From a virus, in IMG/VR virus record IMGVR_UViG_3300030061_003724, positions 1 through 64,000 of that record: DNA of 64,000 nt. One strand, given 5' to 3'. The notes beneath the pieces are model-generated. The model made no database searches. It was not told the DNA's origin and saw only the letters and a program-made list of their open reading frames with translations. The translations under genes and the position numbers were made by a program. Each line of letters begins with the position of its first letter. Position 1 is the first letter of the stretch. Shown piece by piece: positions 3,596 through 33,695 of this stretch.

Positions 3596-4209
3596 ATTCT
3601 GGAAATATATTGGTTTACGTCATCCTCATCATCGTCTAATCCTAATTCTTTCAAACGTTGTAAATGATAATCATCTACTTCCCATTCTATTTTTTCTGTA
3701 GTTTTATATTGTTCTTGTTTTGATTCAATTTGTTTAACGTCTTGTTTATTAAATACGTCTCCAACTTGTAAAAAATAATGATTATAACACAGTAGCTCTA
3801 TATTGTCTAAACTGTAGTTGTTACTGTTATTGTCTTTAAAATGCAGTAATAACGGCGATTTATAGTCAAGTACTCGCCTTTCTTTAAAACCACACACAGT
3901 ACACTCGTCTAATAAATATCCCTGTTCTATAAGAGCATACTTAAGTTTTGCAGGATCAAATGAAGAAGCAGCTATTCTACCTTCAATTATTTCCATCATG
4001 TGAGGCATCTTTTTAGGACCATTTAAAAATTTAGGGATGCCTTTACCAGCTTGGTTCTTATGTTGCTCAAATAAGTTATACATTTTAGCGTATTTCTTAT
4101 AATGCTGGTATGAAACATGAAGGTACCTTGCCGCAGCCATATTAGATAATGTTTTGGCTTGAGCTGCAACTATTTGTTCCTTACTTAAGAATTTCTTCTT
4201 ATTTGCCAT
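3592..4209 (-). CDS. HNH-like endonuclease domain protein with N-terminal HTH
   Basis: CTVC...LLHFKDNNSNNYSLDNIELLCYNHY. Confidence 0.7.
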   Translation of the reverse strand: MANKKKFLSKEQIVAAQAKTLSNMAAARYLHVSYQHYKKYAKMYNLFEQHKNQAGKGIPKFLNGPKKMPHMMEIIEGRIAASSFDPAKLKYALIEQGYLLDECTVCGFKERRVLDYKSPLLLHFKDNNSNNYSLDNIELLCYNHYFLQVGDVFNKQDVKQIESKQEQYKTTEKIEWEVDDYHLQRLKELGLDDDEDDVNQYISRI

Positions 4210-4528
4210 TCTCGTCTTTAATTGTAAGAGGCCCTATTAAATTTCTCTCCTCTTTATCCATATTTAGCATTTCTGCCTTATTTGTTTTAGGGAGATCCTT
4301 TAACGCTTTTTCATTACGCTGATATGCTTCAAATTGTTTATCATCCATAATGACAGTTTCAATCCAAGTGTGATCACCTTCACCCATCATAACAGGGATC
4401 CCGTGTTTTTTACCTTGACCCTTACCATTTTCAGAGCAAGTAACACAAAAATCATAACCATACTGAGTTAACCTTAATTCAGGCATTGGTTCACCACATG
4501 ATGAACAGGGTATCATTTTGTATTTCAT
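4199..4528 (-). CDS. DksA/TraR-type C4 zinc-finger protein
   Basis: CSSCGEPMPELRL-x7-CVTC; likely start ATG 4528, downstream of late motif 4554-4561. Confidence 0.6.
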   Translation of the reverse strand: MKYKMIPCSSCGEPMPELRLTQYGYDFCVTCSENGKGQGKKHGIPVMMGEGDHTWIETVIMDDKQFEAYQRNEKALKDLPKTNKAEMLNMDKEERNLIGPLTIKDENGK

Positions 4529-25481: not shown

Positions 25482-25754
25482 TTAAAATGTTTTATCTCCT
25501 CCTGGTAATTTAGGTACTGTTACTGGTCTATTTCCTGTTGAATCAATATCATTTTTTGGTTCAACGATTATTCTATAAGGGGTATTATTAATTTTAAAAC
25601 TTCCTCCTTGTTTAAGCATTTTTCTAAAAAATCTCTCTTGTGATTCTGTCCACCCTTCACTAATTACAATCAATTCTTCTTTTGATAATTTTTCATTTGT
25701 TTTACCTATATAAACTTCTACGTTACCTCTTATTGATTGTTTTTTTAGTGTCAT
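25482..25754 (-). CDS. hypothetical protein
   Basis: 90 aa ORF with ATGA overlap on the polB N-part stop. Confidence 0.7.
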   Translation of the reverse strand: MTLKKQSIRGNVEVYIGKTNEKLSKEELIVISEGWTESQERFFRKMLKQGGSFKINNTPYRIIVEPKNDIDSTGNRPVTVPKLPGGDKTF

Positions 25755-27448
25755 ATTTTTAATTTTAATTCGCCTCTAATTACTTTATTCATATGTCTAT
25801 TAGCACATAAAGCACTTTCTTGTATAATTCTTTGTCCTGATAGTGTAATAGCTTCTGATAAGATTACATTACCATATCTGAAACTACCTAATGCTGTTGC
25901 TCCATATAAACTATTAAGCAAAATTTTCATTGTATATTGCATTAAATAGTTATATTCACCTTTTTCTGTGTCTCCAGCTTTATAAGCTGATTTCATACGT
26001 CCCTTATAAATAACACGTTCTTCAAACCATTTTTTAAGAATTGTAGATAATACTGATTCTCTATCTGTCTCAAAAAATACCCCATTAGCTGATATTGCTA
26101 AGTTGTTTTCTTCAATCATTTGAATTAGTTTTTTTACAGGTACATATGCTTGTCTACGATGTTTATTTTCTACTAATAATTCTTCTTCAGGGTCACGTTC
26201 TTTTAAATCGTTAAGTGCCAATCTATTATTACGGTCATCTGCATCTATGATACGTCCCTTGAGTGTTTCTTTACCTATGTTTATACTCATTATAATTGAT
26301 GGATACAGCGATGTTAAATCTTCATCAAACATATACTTGTATAATCCTGCTTTAGGGCAAAATAAATAACCACCAGCATAATTCTTTTTATGAATTGGAT
26401 TTTCATCTCTTCTAGGTGGAATAATTCCTTGAGATAATAGATAAGCTGAAATGGCACCATCTTGTGATACCGTATTAGCATAAACTTCACTATAATTATG
26501 TTTTCCTTTATGAGATAAGTTTTTAGTTAAAGCAATATACTGTAACTTTTCATCTAATAATTTTAATATTTCAACATCACGGAAGTTATACTGAATAAAT
26601 TTCTGAATATCAGTTTCAAATAATTGATCTAGGTTTCCTTCATAATCAACTTTACCTACTTTAGCATATTTTTCTCCAATAGCATCTAATTTCCAGCTTG
26701 GTTCATCTTTCCAACTATACTTTTTATGTAAACGCATATAATCTAAAGATTCAACTCCAATAATTTCTACAAATTGATTACGCTTAAACCAATATTGATT
26801 ACCTTTTCTACAATTTACTTTACCAATTGGGGATAAATGTCTAGCAAAATCTTCACCTATTGTATTACACATTCTATAGTACAAATAAGGAATATCAAAG
26901 AAATCACTATTATAACCTATTAAAATATCTGGGTCTATGTCTCTAATAAACTCAATAAATTTACCTAGTAATTCATTTTCAGTTCTACAAGGTATAATTT
27001 CTTTATTTTTAGCTTTAGTATGTTTTAATTGATTCTTTTTATCAAGAATTAAAATATGCCAAGTATCAGGTGTTTTATCCCACCAAGCAATTGAAGTAAT
27101 AGGCATAGGAGCACTTTCAATATAATCTTCAGTTAATGCACCTCCTATTTCACACTCAATATCAAAAAATACTTCTCTATGACCAGTAGAAGGTGTATCA
27201 TCAGTACCATATCTTTCAATTAAATATTTTTGATATGGCTTCATATCATGGAAATGAATGTTTGAAGTATTTTTATCCCATTTATAAGTTTTAGTTAGTT
27301 TTTCACCATTAATGCCTTTAAGGTTACCATTTGAATCTTCAACATAAGCTGGGTTCCACCATTCTATTTCGTCATAGCCTGCTTCGTCCCAAAGATGTAT
27401 TTTGAATTTATTTTTACCTAAATTTGTTGCGTAGCATTTTTTATACAT
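25751..27448 (-). CDS. family B DNA polymerase, N-terminal part (3'-5' exonuclease, motifs A and B)
   Basis: FFDIE, GYNSDFFD, YNFRDV, DLTSLYPS, KILLNSLYG; ends before motif C. Confidence 0.92.
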   Translation of the reverse strand: MYKKCYATNLGKNKFKIHLWDEAGYDEIEWWNPAYVEDSNGNLKGINGEKLTKTYKWDKNTSNIHFHDMKPYQKYLIERYGTDDTPSTGHREVFFDIECEIGGALTEDYIESAPMPITSIAWWDKTPDTWHILILDKKNQLKHTKAKNKEIIPCRTENELLGKFIEFIRDIDPDILIGYNSDFFDIPYLYYRMCNTIGEDFARHLSPIGKVNCRKGNQYWFKRNQFVEIIGVESLDYMRLHKKYSWKDEPSWKLDAIGEKYAKVGKVDYEGNLDQLFETDIQKFIQYNFRDVEILKLLDEKLQYIALTKNLSHKGKHNYSEVYANTVSQDGAISAYLLSQGIIPPRRDENPIHKKNYAGGYLFCPKAGLYKYMFDEDLTSLYPSIIMSINIGKETLKGRIIDADDRNNRLALNDLKERDPEEELLVENKHRRQAYVPVKKLIQMIEENNLAISANGVFFETDRESVLSTILKKWFEERVIYKGRMKSAYKAGDTEKGEYNYLMQYTMKILLNSLYGATALGSFRYGNVILSEAITLSGQRIIQESALCANRHMNKVIRGELKLKI

Positions 27449-28159: not shown

Positions 28160-28545
28160 TTTAGATAATCTTGTATTGTTATTGAATCTTCTCTTTCCCA
28201 TGGATATACTATCCATTGATCACTTACTTCCTTAGCATAAAAATTATGTTGAAATTTAGAAGTAGGTTTATGATGTAAAGTAGCCCAGTATACACCTGGT
28301 GCTTTACTCAATGTCTCTCCTGTATCATTAATATCATCTACTACTAAAGTATTTTTACCTGGGTGTAATACAAAAGGTAAATCAATTTCATGTGAAATTA
28401 ATACTGCTGGGATTAAACCTCCTCTCGGTAATCCCATTACTGAATCTATATTTGGATAATCTGTTAGAATTTTTTTACATAATATGTTTACACATTCATG
28501 TATTTCAGACCATTCAAGGTATACTTTAGATATTGTGTCCGCCAT
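28156..28545 (-). CDS. purine phosphoribosyltransferase (Gpt-like)
   Basis: PRGG, VVDDINDTGETL PRPP-binding motif, WIVYPWE. Confidence 0.88.
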   Translation of the reverse strand: MADTISKVYLEWSEIHECVNILCKKILTDYPNIDSVMGLPRGGLIPAVLISHEIDLPFVLHPGKNTLVVDDINDTGETLSKAPGVYWATLHHKPTSKFQHNFYAKEVSDQWIVYPWEREDSITIQDYLK

Positions 28546-29218
28546 TATTTATTTTTAAACTATCAAAGAATTCTTTTCTAGCTAGGTTATCATTTTCTCT
28601 AAATACTCCTGTTGCTTTAGTTGTAACCATAGCAGCACCTTGATGTTTAACACCTCTACAACTTACACAATTATGTGTTCCTACTACTGTAACAATTACA
28701 CCTTTATTATTTTCACAAATTTTATTTACAGCATTATGGATTGCTGATGTTAGTTGTTCTTGAATTGCTCCTCTTCTTCCAAACAATTCTACTATTCTAT
28801 TTAACTTAGATAATCCAATTACTCTACCATTATCTCCAACAACATATCCAATATGAACTACACCTCCAATTGTTTGATGGTGATGTGAACACATTGAAGT
28901 TAACGGTATATTTCGTTCTATAACAATGCCATCATAACCATCTGATGGGAATGATGTGATTGGAGACATCTGTGTGTATCTACCAGCCCACAAATCATTT
29001 ACATATGCTTTAGCTACTCTCATAGGAGTATCAGCTGAGTTGGGATCATTCTGCCAATCACATTTTAATGCCTCTAAAAATCGGGCATATGCTTTAGCAG
29101 CTTTGTTTATCATTTTTTGTTTTTCTTTATCGTTTAGAGGAAATCCAGGTGCAACTCCATTTGCGAATCCTTCTTGTACTACCTCTAAGTCGTTGTGATT
29201 TTTTCTACGATTGCTCAT
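28526..29218 (-). CDS. folE: GTP cyclohydrolase I
   Basis: DTPMRVAK, MCSHH, IGLSKLNR, QE, HNCVSCRGV. Confidence 0.95.
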   Translation of the reverse strand: MSNRRKNHNDLEVVQEGFANGVAPGFPLNDKEKQKMINKAAKAYARFLEALKCDWQNDPNSADTPMRVAKAYVNDLWAGRYTQMSPITSFPSDGYDGIVIERNIPLTSMCSHHHQTIGGVVHIGYVVGDNGRVIGLSKLNRIVELFGRRGAIQEQLTSAIHNAVNKICENNKGVIVTVVGTHNCVSCRGVKHQGAAMVTTKATGVFRENDNLARKEFFDSLKINNGGHNI

Positions 29219-29342
29219 TTATATAACTTTCTAATTTATCTATTAATACTAGTACTTCATCTGGTTCCATTGTAATGGCACAACAAACGTGTACATTTTC
29301 CTTTATGTCTTCTAATATACGAAGGGCTTCTTGCTTATCCAC
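29205..29342 (-). CDS. small protein with CC motif (45 aa, not in ORF track)
   Basis: GTG start overlapping the queE stop; MDKQEALRILEDIKENVHVCCAITMEPDEVLVLIDKLESYINEQS. Confidence 0.55.
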   Translation of the reverse strand: MDKQEALRILEDIKENVHVCCAITMEPDEVLVLIDKLESYINEQS

Positions 29343-29343
29343 T
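29314..29343 (-). promoter_or_regulatory. early/middle promoter AGTG-N18-CGTATATT
   Basis: Recurring motif upstream of folE. Confidence 0.55.
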
Positions 29344-30127
29344 ATACTTCTCGTTTATCTTCAAAAGCAATAATATGTGGTCTCCAAGTCATTCTATAAC
29401 CATTATCTCTAACCCAATCAAATAATACTGGGTAGGACTTAAATAGTGCTTCTCTAGAATCACCTGCAGGCATAAACCATACTTTTTCAGGTTTAACTTC
29501 TAACTGAGCTATACAATCCATAATTTCAGCTAGTGCTCCTTTATCCTTACCATCCCAAACTGGTTTGATATGAAAATCCGAATGGTACGCTATTGATTGT
29601 TTTATAGCTGCATAATTAAGTCTTAATTTATTATGTTGTTTTACCATTTTTTCGTCTGTAACTTTTCCTTGAGGAGTAAGAGTACCAACAACGGGGACGC
29701 TATTACTAAACTTAGGAGAAATTGACAGAAGATTAATAGGATAATCAGTAGGAAGGAAATGTGATCCTTCAGTTTCCATAGTAATGAATATATTGTTTTC
29801 ATGTGCAAAGTGGGTTAACTCGTTAACCAAAGCAGCATGCATTGAAGGAGAACCTCCAGTCAACATCATTTCCTTTATATGAGGATTTTTCTCATACATG
29901 GCAATGATATCTTTAAAATTAAAGTGACCTTTTTCTGGATGGATACTAGTGTACCAAGAATCACACCATCCACCTTCACCGAAATAACATCTGTGGGTGC
30001 ATCCTGTTGTTCTAATTACTACTGTTGGGTATCCTGCTCTTGATCCTTCTGATTGTACTGCAGTGTAGATTTCTACAATTGGGAGGTTTTTATCGTAATC
30101 CTCAATACGTTTCAGTTGCTTGTGCAT
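29342..30127 (-). CDS. queE: 7-carboxy-7-deazaguanine synthase (radical SAM)
   Basis: EIY.AVQSEG..G.P...RT.GC, CDS.YT, TGG, ETEG, SISPK, R.H. Confidence 0.9.
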   Translation of the reverse strand: MHKQLKRIEDYDKNLPIVEIYTAVQSEGSRAGYPTVVIRTTGCTHRCYFGEGGWCDSWYTSIHPEKGHFNFKDIIAMYEKNPHIKEMMLTGGSPSMHAALVNELTHFAHENNIFITMETEGSHFLPTDYPINLLSISPKFSNSVPVVGTLTPQGKVTDEKMVKQHNKLRLNYAAIKQSIAYHSDFHIKPVWDGKDKGALAEIMDCIAQLEVKPEKVWFMPAGDSREALFKSYPVLFDWVRDNGYRMTWRPHIIAFEDKREV

Positions 30128-30170
30128 ATTGTTAATTTTTTATAGTGGTTTTTCATTCACTGTTGTAACT

Positions 30171-30635
30171 TTATTCGCTGTAATAAGCAGCATTTTTTCC
30201 ATGTTCTGCAAACTTAACTTTGACAACTCTTACTCTATTGTCTGTTTCAGTTTTAACAAAATCATTTAATTTGTGATAAATATATTCAGCAAATTTCTCT
30301 GCGCCAGTAGCTGGGATAACCCTTACTTGAGCTACTCCTGCTGTATCCATTTGTTTAAATGCTTCTAATTCTGGGTCATCTTCTGCCACAACTAAAGTGT
30401 GGTCAAACATATAATCCATCCATGCTTTAGGAGACATACCATCAATTTGAGTTTTAGCTCTTTTCATTCCACCAAAATCCCAAACCCAATTTCTATGATC
30501 TAAATCTCCTTCAAAGTATACTTTAAAAGAAACTCCATAACCATGAACAAATCTACAGTGTGTTGTTGTTGCTTTCCATTGACGAAACACTGTACTAAAA
30601 CCGTCAAATACTTTACTTGATTGAAACTTACCCAT
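30171..30635 (-). CDS. queD: 6-carboxytetrahydropterin synthase-like T-fold protein
   Basis: HCRFVHGY, WVWDFG, FDHT; adjacent to queE. Confidence 0.85.
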   Translation of the reverse strand: MGKFQSSKVFDGFSTVFRQWKATTTHCRFVHGYGVSFKVYFEGDLDHRNWVWDFGGMKRAKTQIDGMSPKAWMDYMFDHTLVVAEDDPELEAFKQMDTAGVAQVRVIPATGAEKFAEYIYHKLNDFVKTETDNRVRVVKVKFAEHGKNAAYYSE

Positions 30636-30876
30636 TATACCAATTTAATATGTCTTCCCTTGACCTGTTACCTACTACTCTAGCTAATTCATTATTGTTT
30701 TGATCTACTTTAATTAAAGTTGGGACTGATCTAACTGAGTAATGACTTGCTTTTTCCATATCCTCATCAATATTTACTTTATGAATTGGAATATCTAAAC
30801 TTAATTTGTCCATTACTGGTCCTAATGCTCTACAAGGACCACACCATGGAGCTGTAAAATAAATTATTTTATTCAT
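30628..30876 (-). CDS. trxA: thioredoxin
   Basis: WCGPC, SVPT. Confidence 0.9.
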   Translation of the reverse strand: MNKIIYFTAPWCGPCRALGPVMDKLSLDIPIHKVNIDEDMEKASHYSVRSVPTLIKVDQNNNELARVVGNRSREDILNWYNG

Positions 30877-30894
30877 ATTTAATTTTTATTATAA

Positions 30895-31140
30895 TTATAC
30901 TAATTCTTCTACTATACCTATAACCTCAGATAATATAAGAACTCCTACTGCTAACTCCAAGCTATATAACAAAAGTCCATAACCTGCTAATCTAACTCCT
31001 GATTTAACGAAACTAACTATTTGGTGTTTCTTTTGATCAGGCATGTGTTCTAAATTTTTTCTATCTTTAATTATCCCATCCATATCTTTTATTTCTATCA
31101 TTTCTTTTTTTGTCATTGGTGCTCTATATATCATATCCAT
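30895..31140 (-). CDS. small membrane protein
   Basis: C-terminal hydrophobic hairpin ending GIVEELV. Confidence 0.65.
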   Translation of the reverse strand: MDMIYRAPMTKKEMIEIKDMDGIIKDRKNLEHMPDQKKHQIVSFVKSGVRLAGYGLLLYSLELAVGVLILSEVIGIVEELV

Positions 31141-31514
31141 TTATTTTTTTTAAAGTAAGTCCACATCCCTACTACTGTACCTACAGTTAAAACTGCAAAT
31201 ATCCAAAATCCATGATCGTCTGATATTAAAGGAACATCATCAAAATTCATTCCCCAAAGTCCAGTATAAAAAGATAATGGTAAAAATATTGTAGACCATA
31301 TTGTTAATAAATTTAACCTACGATTCATAAGATCATTATGTCTTTTTTCAATCATAGATTCTAACACTTCAAATATTTCTATTAAATCTAAGTGTTCGCC
31401 TTTTAATAATTCTCTTTTTAAATTATAAAAATCGTTTGTGTCGTAGCTTTTATTTTCAAATATTACAATTTCGTAATATTGTAAAGCTTTTTTTAATTGT
31501 TCTTTTCTTGCCAT
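31131..31514 (-). CDS. truncated CorA-family Mg2+ channel (mini-CorA)
   Basis: MNRRLNLLTIWSTIFLPLSFYTGLWGMNF, second TM helix, KKNKW. Confidence 0.8.
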   Translation of the reverse strand: MARKEQLKKALQYYEIVIFENKSYDTNDFYNLKRELLKGEHLDLIEIFEVLESMIEKRHNDLMNRRLNLLTIWSTIFLPLSFYTGLWGMNFDDVPLISDDHGFWIFAVLTVGTVVGMWTYFKKNKWI

Positions 31515-31696
31515 AAGTCTAATGTCCAAAGTAATGATTCAATAAAATATAAAACTCCAACTAACATCATTCCATAATGTGTCCATTCACCACTATGACC
31601 ATAAGTAAAGTCTTGGTAAATAGAAGGAATAGCAGAGCCCATAATTGAAACACTAAATAATAGTTTTACATATTTATTTTCTAAAAATTTTCTCAT
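31493..31696 (-). CDS. small two-TM membrane protein
   Basis: Two hydrophobic segments; ATGA-coupled to the upstream gene. Confidence 0.65.
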   Translation of the reverse strand: MRKFLENKYVKLLFSVSIMGSAIPSIYQDFTYGHSGEWTHYGMMLVGVLYFIESLLWTLDLWQEKNN

Positions 31697-32370
31697 TTGC
31701 AGCATTCTTTTGTTGATCTAATTTCTGGTACTGGATTTAATATTTTAACATTATAATTAATTACTAACCTATAATCGTTAACTGTAGGAGGACATCCTGC
31801 ATGTAAATAATCTTGTTTAAACATTATAATAGTACCTTTTTTAGGAGTAATTGATTTTCTAATTTCTAATTCTTTTCCTAAAGTCAGATAATTAATACCT
31901 TTATTTTTAAATATAATTGTATCACCATCCGAGTCATCAATATAATAAAGAAGAGTCCAACCTCCAAGCCCTTCAAAATCACAGTGCGGAATAAAACAAG
32001 TATCTTTATTCTCAGGAAGATCTTTATAATTGAAATTTGATTTAATTTTCATTAATTCATATTCCATATTAAAGTTTTTAGCTAAACTATTTAAAGGTGA
32101 AAGTATTAAGTCACTCCATACTTCTTTTTTATAATTCCAAACTCCTTCTTCATAGAAAACACTTTGAAATATACCAGGTCTTAATTGTACTTTTTTTCCT
32201 GGTATCTTAATAGAATCAATATCAATAGGATTTTTAATCATATTAGCTTGTGGTTTTCTTGTAGCCGCAAACTCATACTTTACTTTTCCTAAATGATCAT
32301 TTAAGATATTTTCCTGTATCTCTGGAGATACTATATTGGGAAATACATAAACTAAATCGTTTAAAACCAT
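31693..32370 (-). CDS. 2OG-Fe(II) oxygenase
   Basis: PHCD, LYYIDDSDGDT, PKKG...H...R.VIN. Confidence 0.8.
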   Translation of the reverse strand: MVLNDLVYVFPNIVSPEIQENILNDHLGKVKYEFAATRKPQANMIKNPIDIDSIKIPGKKVQLRPGIFQSVFYEEGVWNYKKEVWSDLILSPLNSLAKNFNMEYELMKIKSNFNYKDLPENKDTCFIPHCDFEGLGGWTLLYYIDDSDGDTIIFKNKGINYLTLGKELEIRKSITPKKGTIIMFKQDYLHAGCPPTVNDYRLVINYNVKILNPVPEIRSTKECCK

Positions 32371-32386
32371 ACTCTATTTTAATTTG

Positions 32387-32528
32387 TTGCCCAGGCAGGA
32401 CTCGAACCTGCGACCTCTTTGACCTCTTTGCTTTTCACGATCGATTGTATTACAAGTTTCCCTTCACGTTAAAGTTCAACTTCGCGCCGAGTTAAGCCAA
32501 AGCGAGCTACCTACTGCTCTACTGGGTA
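32387..32528 (-). tRNA. tRNA-like gene with a 76-nt segment in place of the anticodon loop (identity unresolved)
   Basis: Acceptor TACCCAG/CTGGGCA, D arm GAGC-AGTAGGTA-GCTC, stem CTTTG/CAAAG, variable loop AGGTC, T arm GCAGG-TTCGAGT-CCTGC. Confidence 0.7.
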
Positions 32529-32536
32529 TATTTTTG

Positions 32537-32609
32537 TTGTCCCGCCAGGTTTCGAACCTGGACTCTTCTGAACCAAAATCAGACGTGTTACCAGTTACAC
32601 CACAGGACA
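32537..32609 (-). tRNA. tRNA-Gln(TTG)
   Basis: Full cloverleaf, anticodon arm TCTGA-TTTTGGT-TCAGA; CCA not encoded. Confidence 0.95.
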
Positions 32610-32614
32610 TTTAG

Positions 32615-32688
32615 TGGAGGATATCGGAGTCGAACCGATGACCTCTTGAATGCAAATCAAGTGCTCTAGCCAGCTGAGCTAATCCCCC
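32615..32688 (-). tRNA. tRNA-Ala(TGC)
   Basis: Full cloverleaf, CTTGA-TTTGCAT-TCAAG, G3:U70 identity pair. Confidence 0.95.
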
Positions 32689-32694
32689 TACCTT

Positions 32695-33489
32695 TTAAGC
32701 TGCGTATTCAGCAAGCAATTTCTCTACGTGAGATTTTGCTACTTCGTAATCAACTTCTCCAGTTTCATCCTCATACTGTACAGGATCTTTTCTCCCCAGA
32801 GCAATAAAAGCCTCAATCCTCTCAACACTAGAAGCAGACTTATAATCACTATTTCCTGAAGGATATGGTTTATAAGAAGTATTTGTTCTCTTATAAACTT
32901 CATCAAATTCAATACCCAACGTATCAACCAAACTCTCTCCATCCTTTAAAATTCCTAATTTATCTGTGTCAATATAAGGTATAAAAAATCCTACTTTATC
33001 AGCATCCCAATTACCAATTTTGAAAGCTTCATAATCAGCATCTCTAAATTCTTGTCTACAATCAGGATAGATAGCATGATCACCAGCATGGATACCTAAA
33101 GCAATATCACATTCATCTCCTGTTTTTTTAGATACAGATAATGCTACTGCTTGAGTTAATGAAGAGAAAATTTTATTTCTATTAGGTACAACTGTTGCTA
33201 CCATATTTTCTTCTTCATAATGACCTTCTGGTACATCTTCTCCACCTTCTACAAGGTTAGAATCTAGTAGGTTTACTAAACCATCTAATTTAATTACTTG
33301 ATAAGTAACATTCTGACCATTAGCATTTAAATAATCTACTAATGATTGTGCTCTTTCAAGTTCCACTCTATGCTTCTGACCGTAATCAAAAGATAAAGCT
33401 GTTACATTGTCATACTCAGATAAACATCTAAGTAGTAAAGTTGAGGAGTCCATCCCTCCAGATAAGGACACTACGACATTTTTTGCCAT
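32695..33489 (-). CDS. queC: 7-cyano-7-deazaguanine synthase
   Basis: SGGMDS, FDYGQKH, VPNRN, YPDCR. Confidence 0.93.
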   Translation of the reverse strand: MAKNVVVSLSGGMDSSTLLLRCLSEYDNVTALSFDYGQKHRVELERAQSLVDYLNANGQNVTYQVIKLDGLVNLLDSNLVEGGEDVPEGHYEEENMVATVVPNRNKIFSSLTQAVALSVSKKTGDECDIALGIHAGDHAIYPDCRQEFRDADYEAFKIGNWDADKVGFFIPYIDTDKLGILKDGESLVDTLGIEFDEVYKRTNTSYKPYPSGNSDYKSASSVERIEAFIALGRKDPVQYEDETGEVDYEVAKSHVEKLLAEYAA

Positions 33490-33695
33490 GATTTAAAATA
33501 ATTAATTAAATTTTGCCAGGTATTATTAAGCGTATAGGCAAACGCTGACTTTAAATGTTTGAATTTACATTTAAGATAAGATATAGTATAATGATAAATA
33601 GCTACTAATCCAAACCCTCCTGTAAGAAGAGTCCAAATGTTTGGATGCCAGTGCTCTCCACAAAATCCTAATGCATGTTTTATTATTTCTGCCAT
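33471..33695 (-). CDS. small membrane protein
   Basis: HALGFCGEHWHP followed by a hydrophobic segment. Confidence 0.6.
   Translation of the reverse strand: MAEIIKHALGFCGEHWHPNIWTLLTGGFGLVAIYHYTISYLKCKFKHLKSAFAYTLNNTWQNLINYFKSWQKMS

What the first reader, a model, noticed from the sequence alone, without database searches (positions are those of the whole stretch)
32387..32528. tRNA body with its anticodon loop replaced by a 76-nt structured insert
Acceptor (one A2:C71 mismatch), D and T arms are intact, with an initiator-like A11:U24 pair. Between CTTTG (32502-32498) and CAAAG (32421-32417) lie 76 nt instead of 7. The insert has several GNRA-type words and short hairpins, and ends in a tandem duplication CAAAGAGGT-CAAAGAGGT that allows two alternative pairings with the 5' strand. 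It is too short for a group I intron, and no splice gives a clean U33 loop with a 5-bp stem; a 6-bp stem would give CT-TAA (Leu). It is co-transcribed with normal tRNA-Ala and tRNA-Gln. Possibilities: a protein-spliced mini-intron, an anticodon-nuclease decoy, or a tRNA-scaffolded ncRNA.
Basis: partly seen in the sequence, partly recalled or inferred. Interest (0 to 1): 0.7.

Follow-up and report, generated by a model that had tools for sequence, protein, structure and literature searches.

The report
Phage tRNA-shaped RNA carrying structured cargo
An uncultured marine phage encodes, behind two normal tRNA genes, a conserved 142-base RNA that copies the upper body of the start-codon tRNA but holds a folded module instead of a codon-reading loop, so it probably does not decode; its job is unknown.

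Summary
The element (32387-32528, minus strand) is a real, selected RNA gene. I found 52 distinct versions in 85 loci from uncultured marine phage contigs and metagenomes, none in 185,579 prokaryote genomes, none in cultured phages, and no Rfam match.

Acceptor, D, T and a 7-bp "anticodon" stem all covary. The body is not tRNA-Leu. Its D arm, variable loop and T arm are identical to a relative's initiator tRNA-fMet. A mismatch at 1:72 or 2:71 is kept in 51 of 52 versions.

The insert is a folded domain: an A/U bulge between two invariant C-G pairs, a covarying helix P1, a purine internal loop, an optional two-helix branch, and an invariant single strand, CGAUCGURAAAAGC. A second, unrelated insert class with the same architecture sits in identical bodies.

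No splice restores a canonical anticodon loop. The bulge varies in length and sequence, and no RNA ligase or splicing endonuclease was found in the phage genomes. I therefore read it as a non-decoding, tRNA-scaffolded RNA (about 0.5), like T4 species 1 RNA. An intron removed by an unknown route is the main rival (about 0.2). Expression could not be tested. This scan has noted similar tRNA frames with cargo in other phages.

The parts
32387..32528 (-). The whole tRNA-shaped RNA gene (142 nt, CCA not encoded)
   Evidence: 52 distinct homologues; covariation.
32522..32528 (-). Acceptor stem, 5' strand (TACCCAG). It pairs with 32388-32394, with an A2xC71 mismatch.
   Evidence: A mismatch at 1:72 or 2:71 occurs in 51 of 52 versions. 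Pairs 3-7 covary.
32504..32519 (-). D arm (GAGC / AGTAGGTA / GCTC) with A11:U24, G18 and G19
   Evidence: 19/19 identical, together with U8, A9 and G26, to the initiator tRNA-Met(cat) of L004. The D stem covaries: GAGC/GCTC, GTTC/GAAC, CCTC/GAGG.
32496..32502 (-). Extended 'anticodon' stem, 5' strand (CTTTGGC). It forms 7 bp with 32417-32423, and the last pair, C-G, is near-invariant (51 of 52; one U-G wobble).
   Evidence: 5 of 7 pairs show changes on both sides.
32492..32495 (-).
   Evidence: Census of 52 versions: UUAA 45, UAAA 4, AUUAA 2, UUAUAA 1.
32489..32491 (-). Insert helix P1, 5' strand (CTC). It pairs with GAG at 32424-32426.
   Evidence: 100% paired. CUC/GAG, CCU/AGG, CCC/GGG, CCG/CGG, and up to 7 bp in class C.
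32484..32488 (-). Purine-rich internal loop (GGC opposite AAA at 32427-32429) and the 5' strand of P2 (GC, paired with GC at 32430-32431)
   Evidence: P2 never varies, so covariation neither supports nor refutes it.
32454..32482 (-). Class A branch: outer helix Pa (32478-32482 with 32454-32458), inner helix Pb (32472-32475 with 32461-32464), and loop UAACGUG (32465-32471)
   Evidence: helices 4 and 5. Variants include AAGC/GCTT, AGTAAT/ATTACT and CAT/ATG. The branch is absent in the 17 class B versions.
32430..32443 (-). Invariant strand CGAUCGUGAAAAGC; CGAUCG is a palindrome and the final GC is also the 3' strand of P2
   Evidence: Invariant columns in A2 apart from one R position. The motif was found only inside this tRNA body in viral and metagenome scans.
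32417..32423 (-). Extended 'anticodon' stem, 3' strand (GTCAAAG)
32395..32416 (-). Variable loop AGGTC and T arm GCAGG / TTCGAGT / CCTGC
   Evidence: 22/22 identical to the L004 initiator tRNA. The T stem covaries.
32387..32394 (-). Acceptor stem, 3' strand (CTGGGCA) and discriminator A
32536..32688 (-). Upstream canonical tRNA-Ala(UGC) and tRNA-Gln(UUG) of the same cluster
   Evidence: ARAGORN; Rfam 68.6 and 63.9 bits.

Best explanation
It is a stable, non-decoding, tRNA-shaped RNA: a natural tRNA scaffold carrying an RNA module. The gene lies in the QueC / tRNA-Ala / tRNA-Gln / 2OG-oxygenase gene string. Because its acceptor, D and T arms are a faithful copy of an initiator tRNA, it should fold into the tRNA L-shape. 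It should then be cut out of the transcript by host RNase P and the tRNA 3'-end enzymes, and receive CCA (inferred). The decoding end has been rebuilt into a long rigid arm. This arm consists of a 7-bp stem, a 4-nt A/U bulge between two near-invariant C-G pairs, helix P1, a purine 3x3 internal loop, P2, an optional two-helix branch, and an invariant 14-nt strand CGAUCGURAAAAGC (its last two bases, GC, also assigned to P2). This arm is the working part. It presents the invariant strand, whose core is a 6-nt palindrome, to a sequence-specific partner. The partner could be a host or phage protein or RNA, or a second copy of the RNA through loop-loop pairing. The frayed, initiator-like acceptor tip would keep the RNA out of elongation. 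The structure, its conservation, the initiator ancestry and the lack of a canonical anticodon loop are shown. Processing, stability, dimerisation and the partner are inferred.
For: (1) The cloverleaf and the arm are under structural selection: 19 of 27 pairs are compensatory; the class A arm is 91.6% paired with 0 of 500 shuffles reaching this, and slid controls give 27-52%.
(2) All tertiary-contact bases (U8, A14, G18, G19, C48, the T loop) are invariant.
(3) The body equals the initiator tRNA at 41 of 41 compared positions, against 29 for the next-best tRNA and 24 for tRNA-Leu(UAA). A top-of-stem mismatch is kept in 51 of 52 versions.
(4) There is no canonical anticodon loop. Rfam's tRNA model gives nothing even at E<=10. 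ARAGORN's intron calls on the 52 versions name at least seven different anticodons. The bulge exists as UUAA, UAAA, AUUAA and UUAUAA in lineages that otherwise keep every helix.
(5) The most conserved part is the single strand inside the insert, not the junctions. That motif occurs only in this body.
(6) A second insert class (C) has a different sequence but the same architecture, including a 6-nt palindrome at the matching place that changes AUGCAU to GUGCAC. It sits in a body identical at 55 of 55 positions to a class B body, so the modules are interchangeable.
(7) No RtcB, Rnl1 (T4 positive control rings), Rnl2-type ligase or EndA was found in five phage records, one of them a complete 176.6-kb genome that carries the element.
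(8) There is precedent: T4 rnaC and rnaD, 139 and 119 nt, with a tRNA-like acceptor stem and T arm (seen in rnaC), lie next to tRNA-Arg in the T4 tRNA region and are expressed (PMC9697503).
Against: No RNA data exist for this element. The four metatranscriptome runs laid on the locus do not cover it, so neither its full-length existence nor the absence of a spliced form is shown. A fixed insertion point with swappable inserts is also what mobile introns look like. The bulge CUUAA equals positions 32-36 of a tRNA-Leu(UAA) loop, and relatives carry a real tRNA-Leu(UAA) in the same cluster. The palindrome CGAUCG never varies in classes A and B, so pairing there is not proven by covariation. RNAcofold was inconclusive. 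No partner has been identified.
Confidence: 0.5

Rival explanations
1. It is an intron-containing tRNA. The insert is cut out and the halves are rejoined by an enzyme route not yet known in bacteria or phages, or by host RtcB plus an unknown endonuclease. This would yield a class I tRNA with the loop CUUAAGG (anticodon UAA), and possibly a released functional intron RNA.
For: ARAGORN in intron mode calls tRNA-Leu(taa) with a 67-nt intron. The insertion point is fixed while insert classes differ and swap between identical bodies. The near-invariant C-G pairs around the bulge could be a recognition site. A UAA anticodon would suit a 30% GC phage, and relatives carry tRNA-Leu(UAA) in this cluster. 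Lak megaphages have unexplained tRNA introns (PMC6784885).
Against: The spliced product would need an extra base between the D and anticodon stems, a 6-nt variable loop and G37 after A36. The intron calls are inconsistent across the family. 7 of 52 versions change the length or sequence of the supposed anticodon strand while keeping everything else. The body is an initiator paralogue without the long variable arm of all bacterial tRNA-Leu (the latter point is textbook knowledge). No bulge-helix-bulge motif exists: there is one 4-nt bulge on the 5' strand and none opposite. The insert is too small for group I and has no Rfam ribozyme hit. No ligase or EndA was found in the phage genomes.
Confidence: 0.2
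2. It is a decoy for a host tRNA-targeting defence, such as an anticodon nuclease or an acceptor-end-modifying toxin. The tRNA body would attract the enzyme, and the rebuilt arm with its anticodon-like CUUAA bulge would trap it or resist cleavage.
For: The RNA keeps everything a tRNA-binding protein sees in the upper half, together with an anticodon-like 5' strand between rigid helices. It is carried by phages that otherwise encode only two or three tRNAs. Phage tRNAs that counter tRNA-cleaving defences are established in the literature (my own knowledge).
Against: There is no direct evidence. The best-conserved element is the internal strand CGAUCGURAAAAGC, not the anticodon-like bulge, which varies. 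Class C replaces the module yet keeps the body. The host and its defences are unknown.
Confidence: 0.15
3. It is a decaying tRNA pseudogene disrupted by a selfish insertion, with no function at the RNA level.
For: It is present in only 13 of the 80 closest QueC loci. The cluster is a hot spot of tRNA gain and loss.
Against: Compensatory changes occur in every helix, tertiary bases are invariant, and a 14-nt core is invariant across lineages whose QueC proteins differ by up to 25%. G-U pairs occur only on the sense strand, which means selection acts on the RNA.
Confidence: 0.04

Closest known systems
Phage T4 species 1 and species 2 RNAs (rnaC 139 nt, rnaD 119 nt)
   Same: They are small stable RNAs next to tRNA-Arg in the phage's tRNA gene region and about the same size. 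rnaC keeps a tRNA-like acceptor stem and T arm around a large non-tRNA interior (read here for rnaC only). Their function is still unknown (PMC9697503).
   Different: I saw no sequence similarity on reading T4 rnaC (no alignment or model search was run). T4 rnaC lacks a canonical D arm and has U-U mismatches in its terminal stem. The present RNA keeps a complete initiator-type body and confines the extra domain to the anticodon loop.
Bacterial initiator tRNA (tRNA-fMet), as encoded by relatives of this phage (L004:4157-4230)
   Same: The D arm, variable loop and T arm are identical. It shares A11:U24, a mismatch at the top of the acceptor stem, and a purine discriminator.
   Different: There is no CAU anticodon, no run of three G-C pairs in the anticodon stem, and no 7-nt loop. 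The acceptor stem sequence differs. MetRS recognition and P-site binding are therefore not expected (inference from textbook identity rules).
'Enigmatic' introns in Lak megaphage tRNAs (Devoto et al. 2019, PMC6784885)
   Same: These are short, conserved, unclassified inserts in phage tRNA genes with no known removal mechanism.
   Different: In Lak phages, alignment with intron-less copies defines an excision that restores a normal tRNA. Here no intron-less copy was found and no excision restores a canonical loop.
Group I introns in bacterial tRNA-Leu(UAA) and tRNA-fMet anticodon loops
   Same: The insertion lies in the anticodon loop of a tRNA frame, and the flanking sequence resembles a UAA loop.
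   Different: The insert is 36-69 nt rather than 200 nt or more. There is no P3-P9 core and no Rfam hit. The 'AA' lies 5' of the insert rather than 3' of it.
Archaeal and eukaryal bulge-helix-bulge tRNA introns
   Same: The insert lies in the anticodon region, flanked by helices and a bulge.
   Different: There is only one bulge, of 4 nt, on the 5' strand. There is no second 3-nt bulge 4 bp away. No EndA homologue was found. The host is bacterial, judging from the bacterial-type initiator tRNA of relatives.
YrlA / bacterial Y RNA-like tRNA mimics (Rfam RF02553)
   Same: It is a non-decoding RNA with a tRNA-like module used as a protein-binding platform.
   Different: The Rfam score is 18 bits against a gathering score of 69. 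The topology is permuted: YrlA's ends lie on the 'anticodon' side (my own knowledge of Chen et al. 2014).
Engineered tRNA scaffolds for recombinant RNA (Ponchon and Dardel design; my own knowledge)
   Same: The cargo replaces the anticodon loop. The tRNA body provides processing and nuclease resistance.
   Different: That is a laboratory design. This would be a natural counterpart.

Membership tests
Canonical tRNA (Rfam RF00005) | Acceptor, D and T arms with conserved tertiary bases | tested here: met
   U8, A14, G18, G19, C48 and the T loop are invariant, and the stems covary.
Canonical tRNA (Rfam RF00005) | A 5-bp anticodon stem closing a 7-nt loop with U33 and an anticodon, and a score above the gathering threshold | tested here: not met
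   The tRNA model gives no hit on 32387-32528 even at E<=10. The stem is 7 bp and is followed by a bulge and a 67-nt domain.
Bacterial initiator tRNA | Mismatch at 1:72, A11:U24 and the initiator-type D and T arms | tested here: met
   In the window itself the mismatch is at 2:71.
Bacterial initiator tRNA | CAU anticodon and three consecutive G-C pairs (29-31:39-41) | tested here: not met
   the stem is CUUUGGC/GUCAAAG and there is no CAU loop.
tRNA-Leu (bacterial, class II) | Long variable arm and a Leu-type D arm | tested here: not met
   The variable loop is 5 nt. Body identity to the relatives' tRNA-Leu(taa) is 24/41.
Group I intron | Catalytic core P3-P9, size of about 200 nt or more, match to Rfam RF00028 | tested here: not met
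   The inserts are 36-69 nt.
Bulge-helix-bulge intron | Two 3-nt bulges on opposite strands separated by 4 bp | tested here: not met
   The consensus structure has a single 4-6 nt bulge on the 5' strand.
Bulge-helix-bulge intron | A splicing endonuclease (EndA) and an RNA ligase are available | tested here: not met
   No PF01974, PF01139, PF09511 or PF09414 match in five phage records. The host genome is unknown, so host RtcB cannot be excluded.
Small self-cleaving ribozymes (hammerhead, twister, pistol, hatchet) | Match to the Rfam models | tested here: not met
   No such match at E<=10.
T4 rnaC/rnaD-type stable RNAs | Lies in the phage tRNA cluster; tRNA-like terminal stem plus T arm; non-tRNA interior; about 120-140 nt | tested here: met
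T4 rnaC/rnaD-type stable RNAs | Sequence or structure homology to rnaC or rnaD | not tested
   I read the T4 rnaC sequence and its terminal stem and T arm and saw no resemblance to the insert, but ran no alignment or model search against it. This is analogy only.
T4 rnaC/rnaD-type stable RNAs | Accumulates as a stable processed RNA | not testable with these tools
   The RNA runs do not cover the element.
YrlA (RF02553) | Score above the gathering threshold; Ro-binding stem formed by the 5' and 3' ends | tested here: not met
   18.6 and 18.2 bits against 69.
tmRNA | G3:U70, a tag reading frame, detection by ARAGORN | tested here: not met
   no tmRNA call. Position 3:70 is C-G.

The most novel reading that the evidence does not exclude
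The insert is a true intron. These marine phages (or their hosts) would then have an undescribed, non-group-I, non-BHB way of cutting a structured 36-69 nt module out of a tRNA and rejoining the halves. The swappable modules would be mobile mini-introns. That would be a new RNA-splicing route in the bacterial world.
Probability: 0.15. Interest if true: 0.9.

Novelty: new variant of a known kind. Interest (0 to 1): 0.6.

Why it matters
Phage tRNA clusters are usually read as codon-usage helpers or as spares against tRNA-cleaving defences. This family shows that marine phages maintain, under clear structural selection, an RNA that uses an initiator-tRNA body only as a frame for an interchangeable folded module. 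It is a natural counterpart of the laboratory "tRNA scaffold" and of T4's species 1 RNA, which has been unexplained for 50 years.

The family offers 52 natural variants, two module classes and an invariant 14-nt strand. Together these give concrete handles for finding the partner: mutagenesis, pull-downs and dimerisation tests. If the alternative holds and the module is spliced out, that would reveal a new tRNA-splicing route in bacteria or their viruses.

Genome annotation pipelines miss these genes entirely.

Tried and rejected
- **RNA evidence.** Four metatranscriptome runs (X15-X18) were laid on 31700-33500. Their contigs cover QueC and tRNA-Ala but not the element. The one joint across it (32416 to 32503) carries the anticodon arm of a foreign tRNA-fMet, not a spliced form. 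This says nothing about expression.
- **Dimer energetics.** RNAcofold placed the palindrome in the intermolecular MFE structure in only 15 of 52 versions. A constant -10.5 kcal/mol contact elsewhere dominated the result, so it is inconclusive.
- **Antisense targets.** No complement of 11 nt or more to the insert exists in the phage contig apart from the locus itself and one 11-mer at 26859; 10-mer hits outside the locus are fewer than a shuffled query gives.
- **Free-standing or other-host copies of the core motif.** All non-tRNA matches in viral, metagenome and genome scans were chance hits without extended similarity.
- **Intron-less allele.** None was found among the loci fetched.
- **More class C members.** One scan was wasted on wrong spacing. 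The corrected scan found only the four known members.
- **Promoter and terminator scan.** Nothing above shuffled expectation.
- **Cultured phages.** Only T-arm matches.
- **preQ1 riboswitch idea**, prompted by the neighbouring Que genes. No Rfam hit.
- **Ideas with no supporting sequence feature:** intramolecular kissing between the branch loop and the core, a k-turn, the 11-nt tetraloop receptor, and ToxI or CRISPR-repeat mimicry.

Full report
**Context.** The window is part of an 81-kb IMG/VR viral contig, about 50% complete and 30% GC. Genes run on the minus strand. The element lies within a run of 7-deazaguanine genes: FolE, QueE, QueD and QueC. It sits directly after QueC, tRNA-Ala(UGC) and tRNA-Gln(UUG), and 16 nt before the start codon of a 2OG-Fe(II) oxygenase gene. 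The family-B polymerase is only 30-34% identical to those of cultured T4-like phages of Microcystis, Methylophilales and Synechococcus, so this is an uncultured marine myovirus-like lineage.

**Observation.** Default ARAGORN and Rfam find only the two normal tRNAs, and Rfam finds nothing relevant even at E<=10. ARAGORN in intron mode draws the cloverleaf and calls tRNA-Leu(taa) with a 67-nt intron. To do so it needs an extra base between the D and anticodon stems and a 6-nt variable loop.

**Relatives.** I used QueC as bait and ran several DNA pattern scans.
- These recovered the element in 85 loci, as 52 distinct sequences.
- It is present in 13 of the 80 nearest QueC loci. The others carry different tRNA sets at the same spot.
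- The core motif was never found outside this tRNA body. It was not found in one genome each of 185,579 prokaryote species or in cultured phages.

**Structure.** RNAalifold on 21 sequences recovers the acceptor, D and T stems, a 7-bp "anticodon" stem and the insert's closing helices. Of the 27 pairs, 19 show compensatory changes. All tertiary-contact bases are invariant. I scored a hand-drawn structure of the arm on 26 class A sequences. It is 91.6% paired, 11 pairs have changes on both sides, no shuffle out of 500 reaches this, and slid controls pair at 27-52%.

The arm reads as follows:
- a 7-bp stem whose last pair is a near-invariant C-G;
- an A/U bulge;
- helix P1, which starts with another invariant C-G and runs 3-7 bp;
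- a purine-rich 3x3 internal loop;
- a 2-bp helix P2, which never varies and is therefore not proven;
- in class A, a branch of two helices (Pa, Pb) whose loop is centred on ACGU (UGCA in L431);
- about 20 further bases drawn as unpaired (apart from the closing GC), ending in the invariant CGAUCGURAAAAGC.

The 17 class B versions lack the branch. The four class C versions have an unrelated sequence but the same plan: P1, a short P2, a hairpin, then a single strand holding a 6-nt palindrome, AUGCAU in three and GUGCAC in one. G-U pairs occur only on the sense strand, so selection acts on the RNA.

**Ancestry.** The D arm (19/19) and the variable loop plus T arm (22/22) are identical to a bona fide initiator tRNA-Met(cat) encoded by a relative. 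That tRNA (L004) has a U1xC72 mismatch, A11:U24, three G-C pairs in its anticodon stem and the loop CUCAUAA. The next-best tRNA type scores 29/41 and tRNA-Leu(taa) scores 24/41. A mismatch at 1:72 or 2:71 is kept in 51 of 52 versions, and A11:U24 in 39 of 52. The element is therefore an initiator-tRNA paralogue with a new acceptor sequence and a rebuilt anticodon end.

**Is it an intron?** The arguments in favour are these:
- the insertion site is fixed and the modules are swappable;
- bodies are identical at 55 of 55 positions between a class B and a class C element, and at 54 and 53 of 55 between A/B and A/C, whereas bodies within one class differ at up to 24 positions;
- the bulge plus the preceding C reads CUUAA, like positions 32-36 of a tRNA-Leu(UAA) loop.

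The arguments against are these:
- No excision yields a canonical stem-loop.
- Run on the 52 isolated sequences, ARAGORN proposes Phe, Gln, Leu, Pro, Ile, Asn and stop anticodons.
- The bulge exists as UUAA (45), UAAA (4), AUUAA (2) and UUAUAA (1), in lineages that keep every helix and the core.
- Position 37 would be G after A36.
- The body lacks the long variable arm of bacterial tRNA-Leu.
- There is no bulge-helix-bulge motif, group I core or small-ribozyme match.
- RtcB, T4-Rnl1 (the T4 control rings), Rnl2-type ligase, EndA and CCA-adding enzyme families are all absent from five phage records. One of these is a complete 176.6-kb genome whose only tRNA-like genes are Arg(UCU), Ala(UGC) and this element.

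**Best reading.** The tRNA part is a frame that secures folding, excision from the polycistronic transcript and stability. The arm is the functional module, and its invariant strand meets a sequence-specific partner. The palindromes at matching places in both module classes, with one compensated change in class C, suggest loop-loop homodimers. This remains an inference, because RNAcofold was inconclusive and CGAUCG never varies.

The closest precedents are T4 rnaC and rnaD, whose function is still unknown (PMC9697503), and the unexplained tRNA introns of Lak megaphages (PMC6784885). Earlier notes of this scan describe similar phage "tRNA frames with cargo" on other DNA. I treat those notes as leads, not as evidence.

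**What remains open.** Expression, the ends of the RNA, charging, dimerisation and the partner are all untested. The RNA runs available do not cover the element.

Noticed in passing
window 28526-33489 (-): A preQ0 / 7-deazaguanine gene set is split by the tRNA cluster: FolE 28526-29218, QueE-like 29342-30127, QueD 30171-30635, QueC 32695-33489. This suggests a DNA-modifying phage.
   Followed up: partly
window 25751-27448 (-): The family-B DNA polymerase ORF is only 565 aa and matches positions 62-567 of an 856-position PHROG profile. The polymerase may be split or truncated.
   Followed up: no
L002-L081, about 3800-4400: The site downstream of QueC is a hot spot of tRNA gain and loss among relatives. 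Content ranges from none, through single Ala, Gln, Ser, Thr or Met genes, to a 7-tRNA array (Thr, Leu, Ser, Asp, Ala, Glu, Gln) in L057-L059.
   Followed up: partly
L004:4157-4230 and L007:4267-4339: Relatives encode a bacterial-type initiator tRNA-fMet with a U1xC72 mismatch. It follows a small ORF (111 aa in L004, 108 aa in L007) whose L004 product starts with a signal-peptide-like hydrophobic stretch.
   Followed up: partly
window 31693-32370 (-): The gene immediately downstream of the element is a 2OG-Fe(II) oxygenase (Pfam PF13640). Its best PHROG match is annotated 'DNA endonuclease V'. Any link to the RNA is unknown.
   Followed up: no
window 32387-32690 and relatives: Most tRNA genes looked at in these phages lack an encoded CCA and are followed by the discriminator and then C-(T/A)-A-A. 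No phage CCA-adding enzyme was found, so the 3' ends must depend on host enzymes.
   Followed up: partly
runs X6-X10 and X14: Runs labelled as single organisms (coded A, B, C) hold 70-81% of the locus words. These cultures or enrichments may contain this phage and so point to its host.
   Followed up: no
window 32444-32472 (-): A sigma-70-like match (TTAACG, 17 nt, TACAAT) lies inside the insert. The region's total count of such matches is no higher than in shuffles, so it is probably chance.
   Followed up: no
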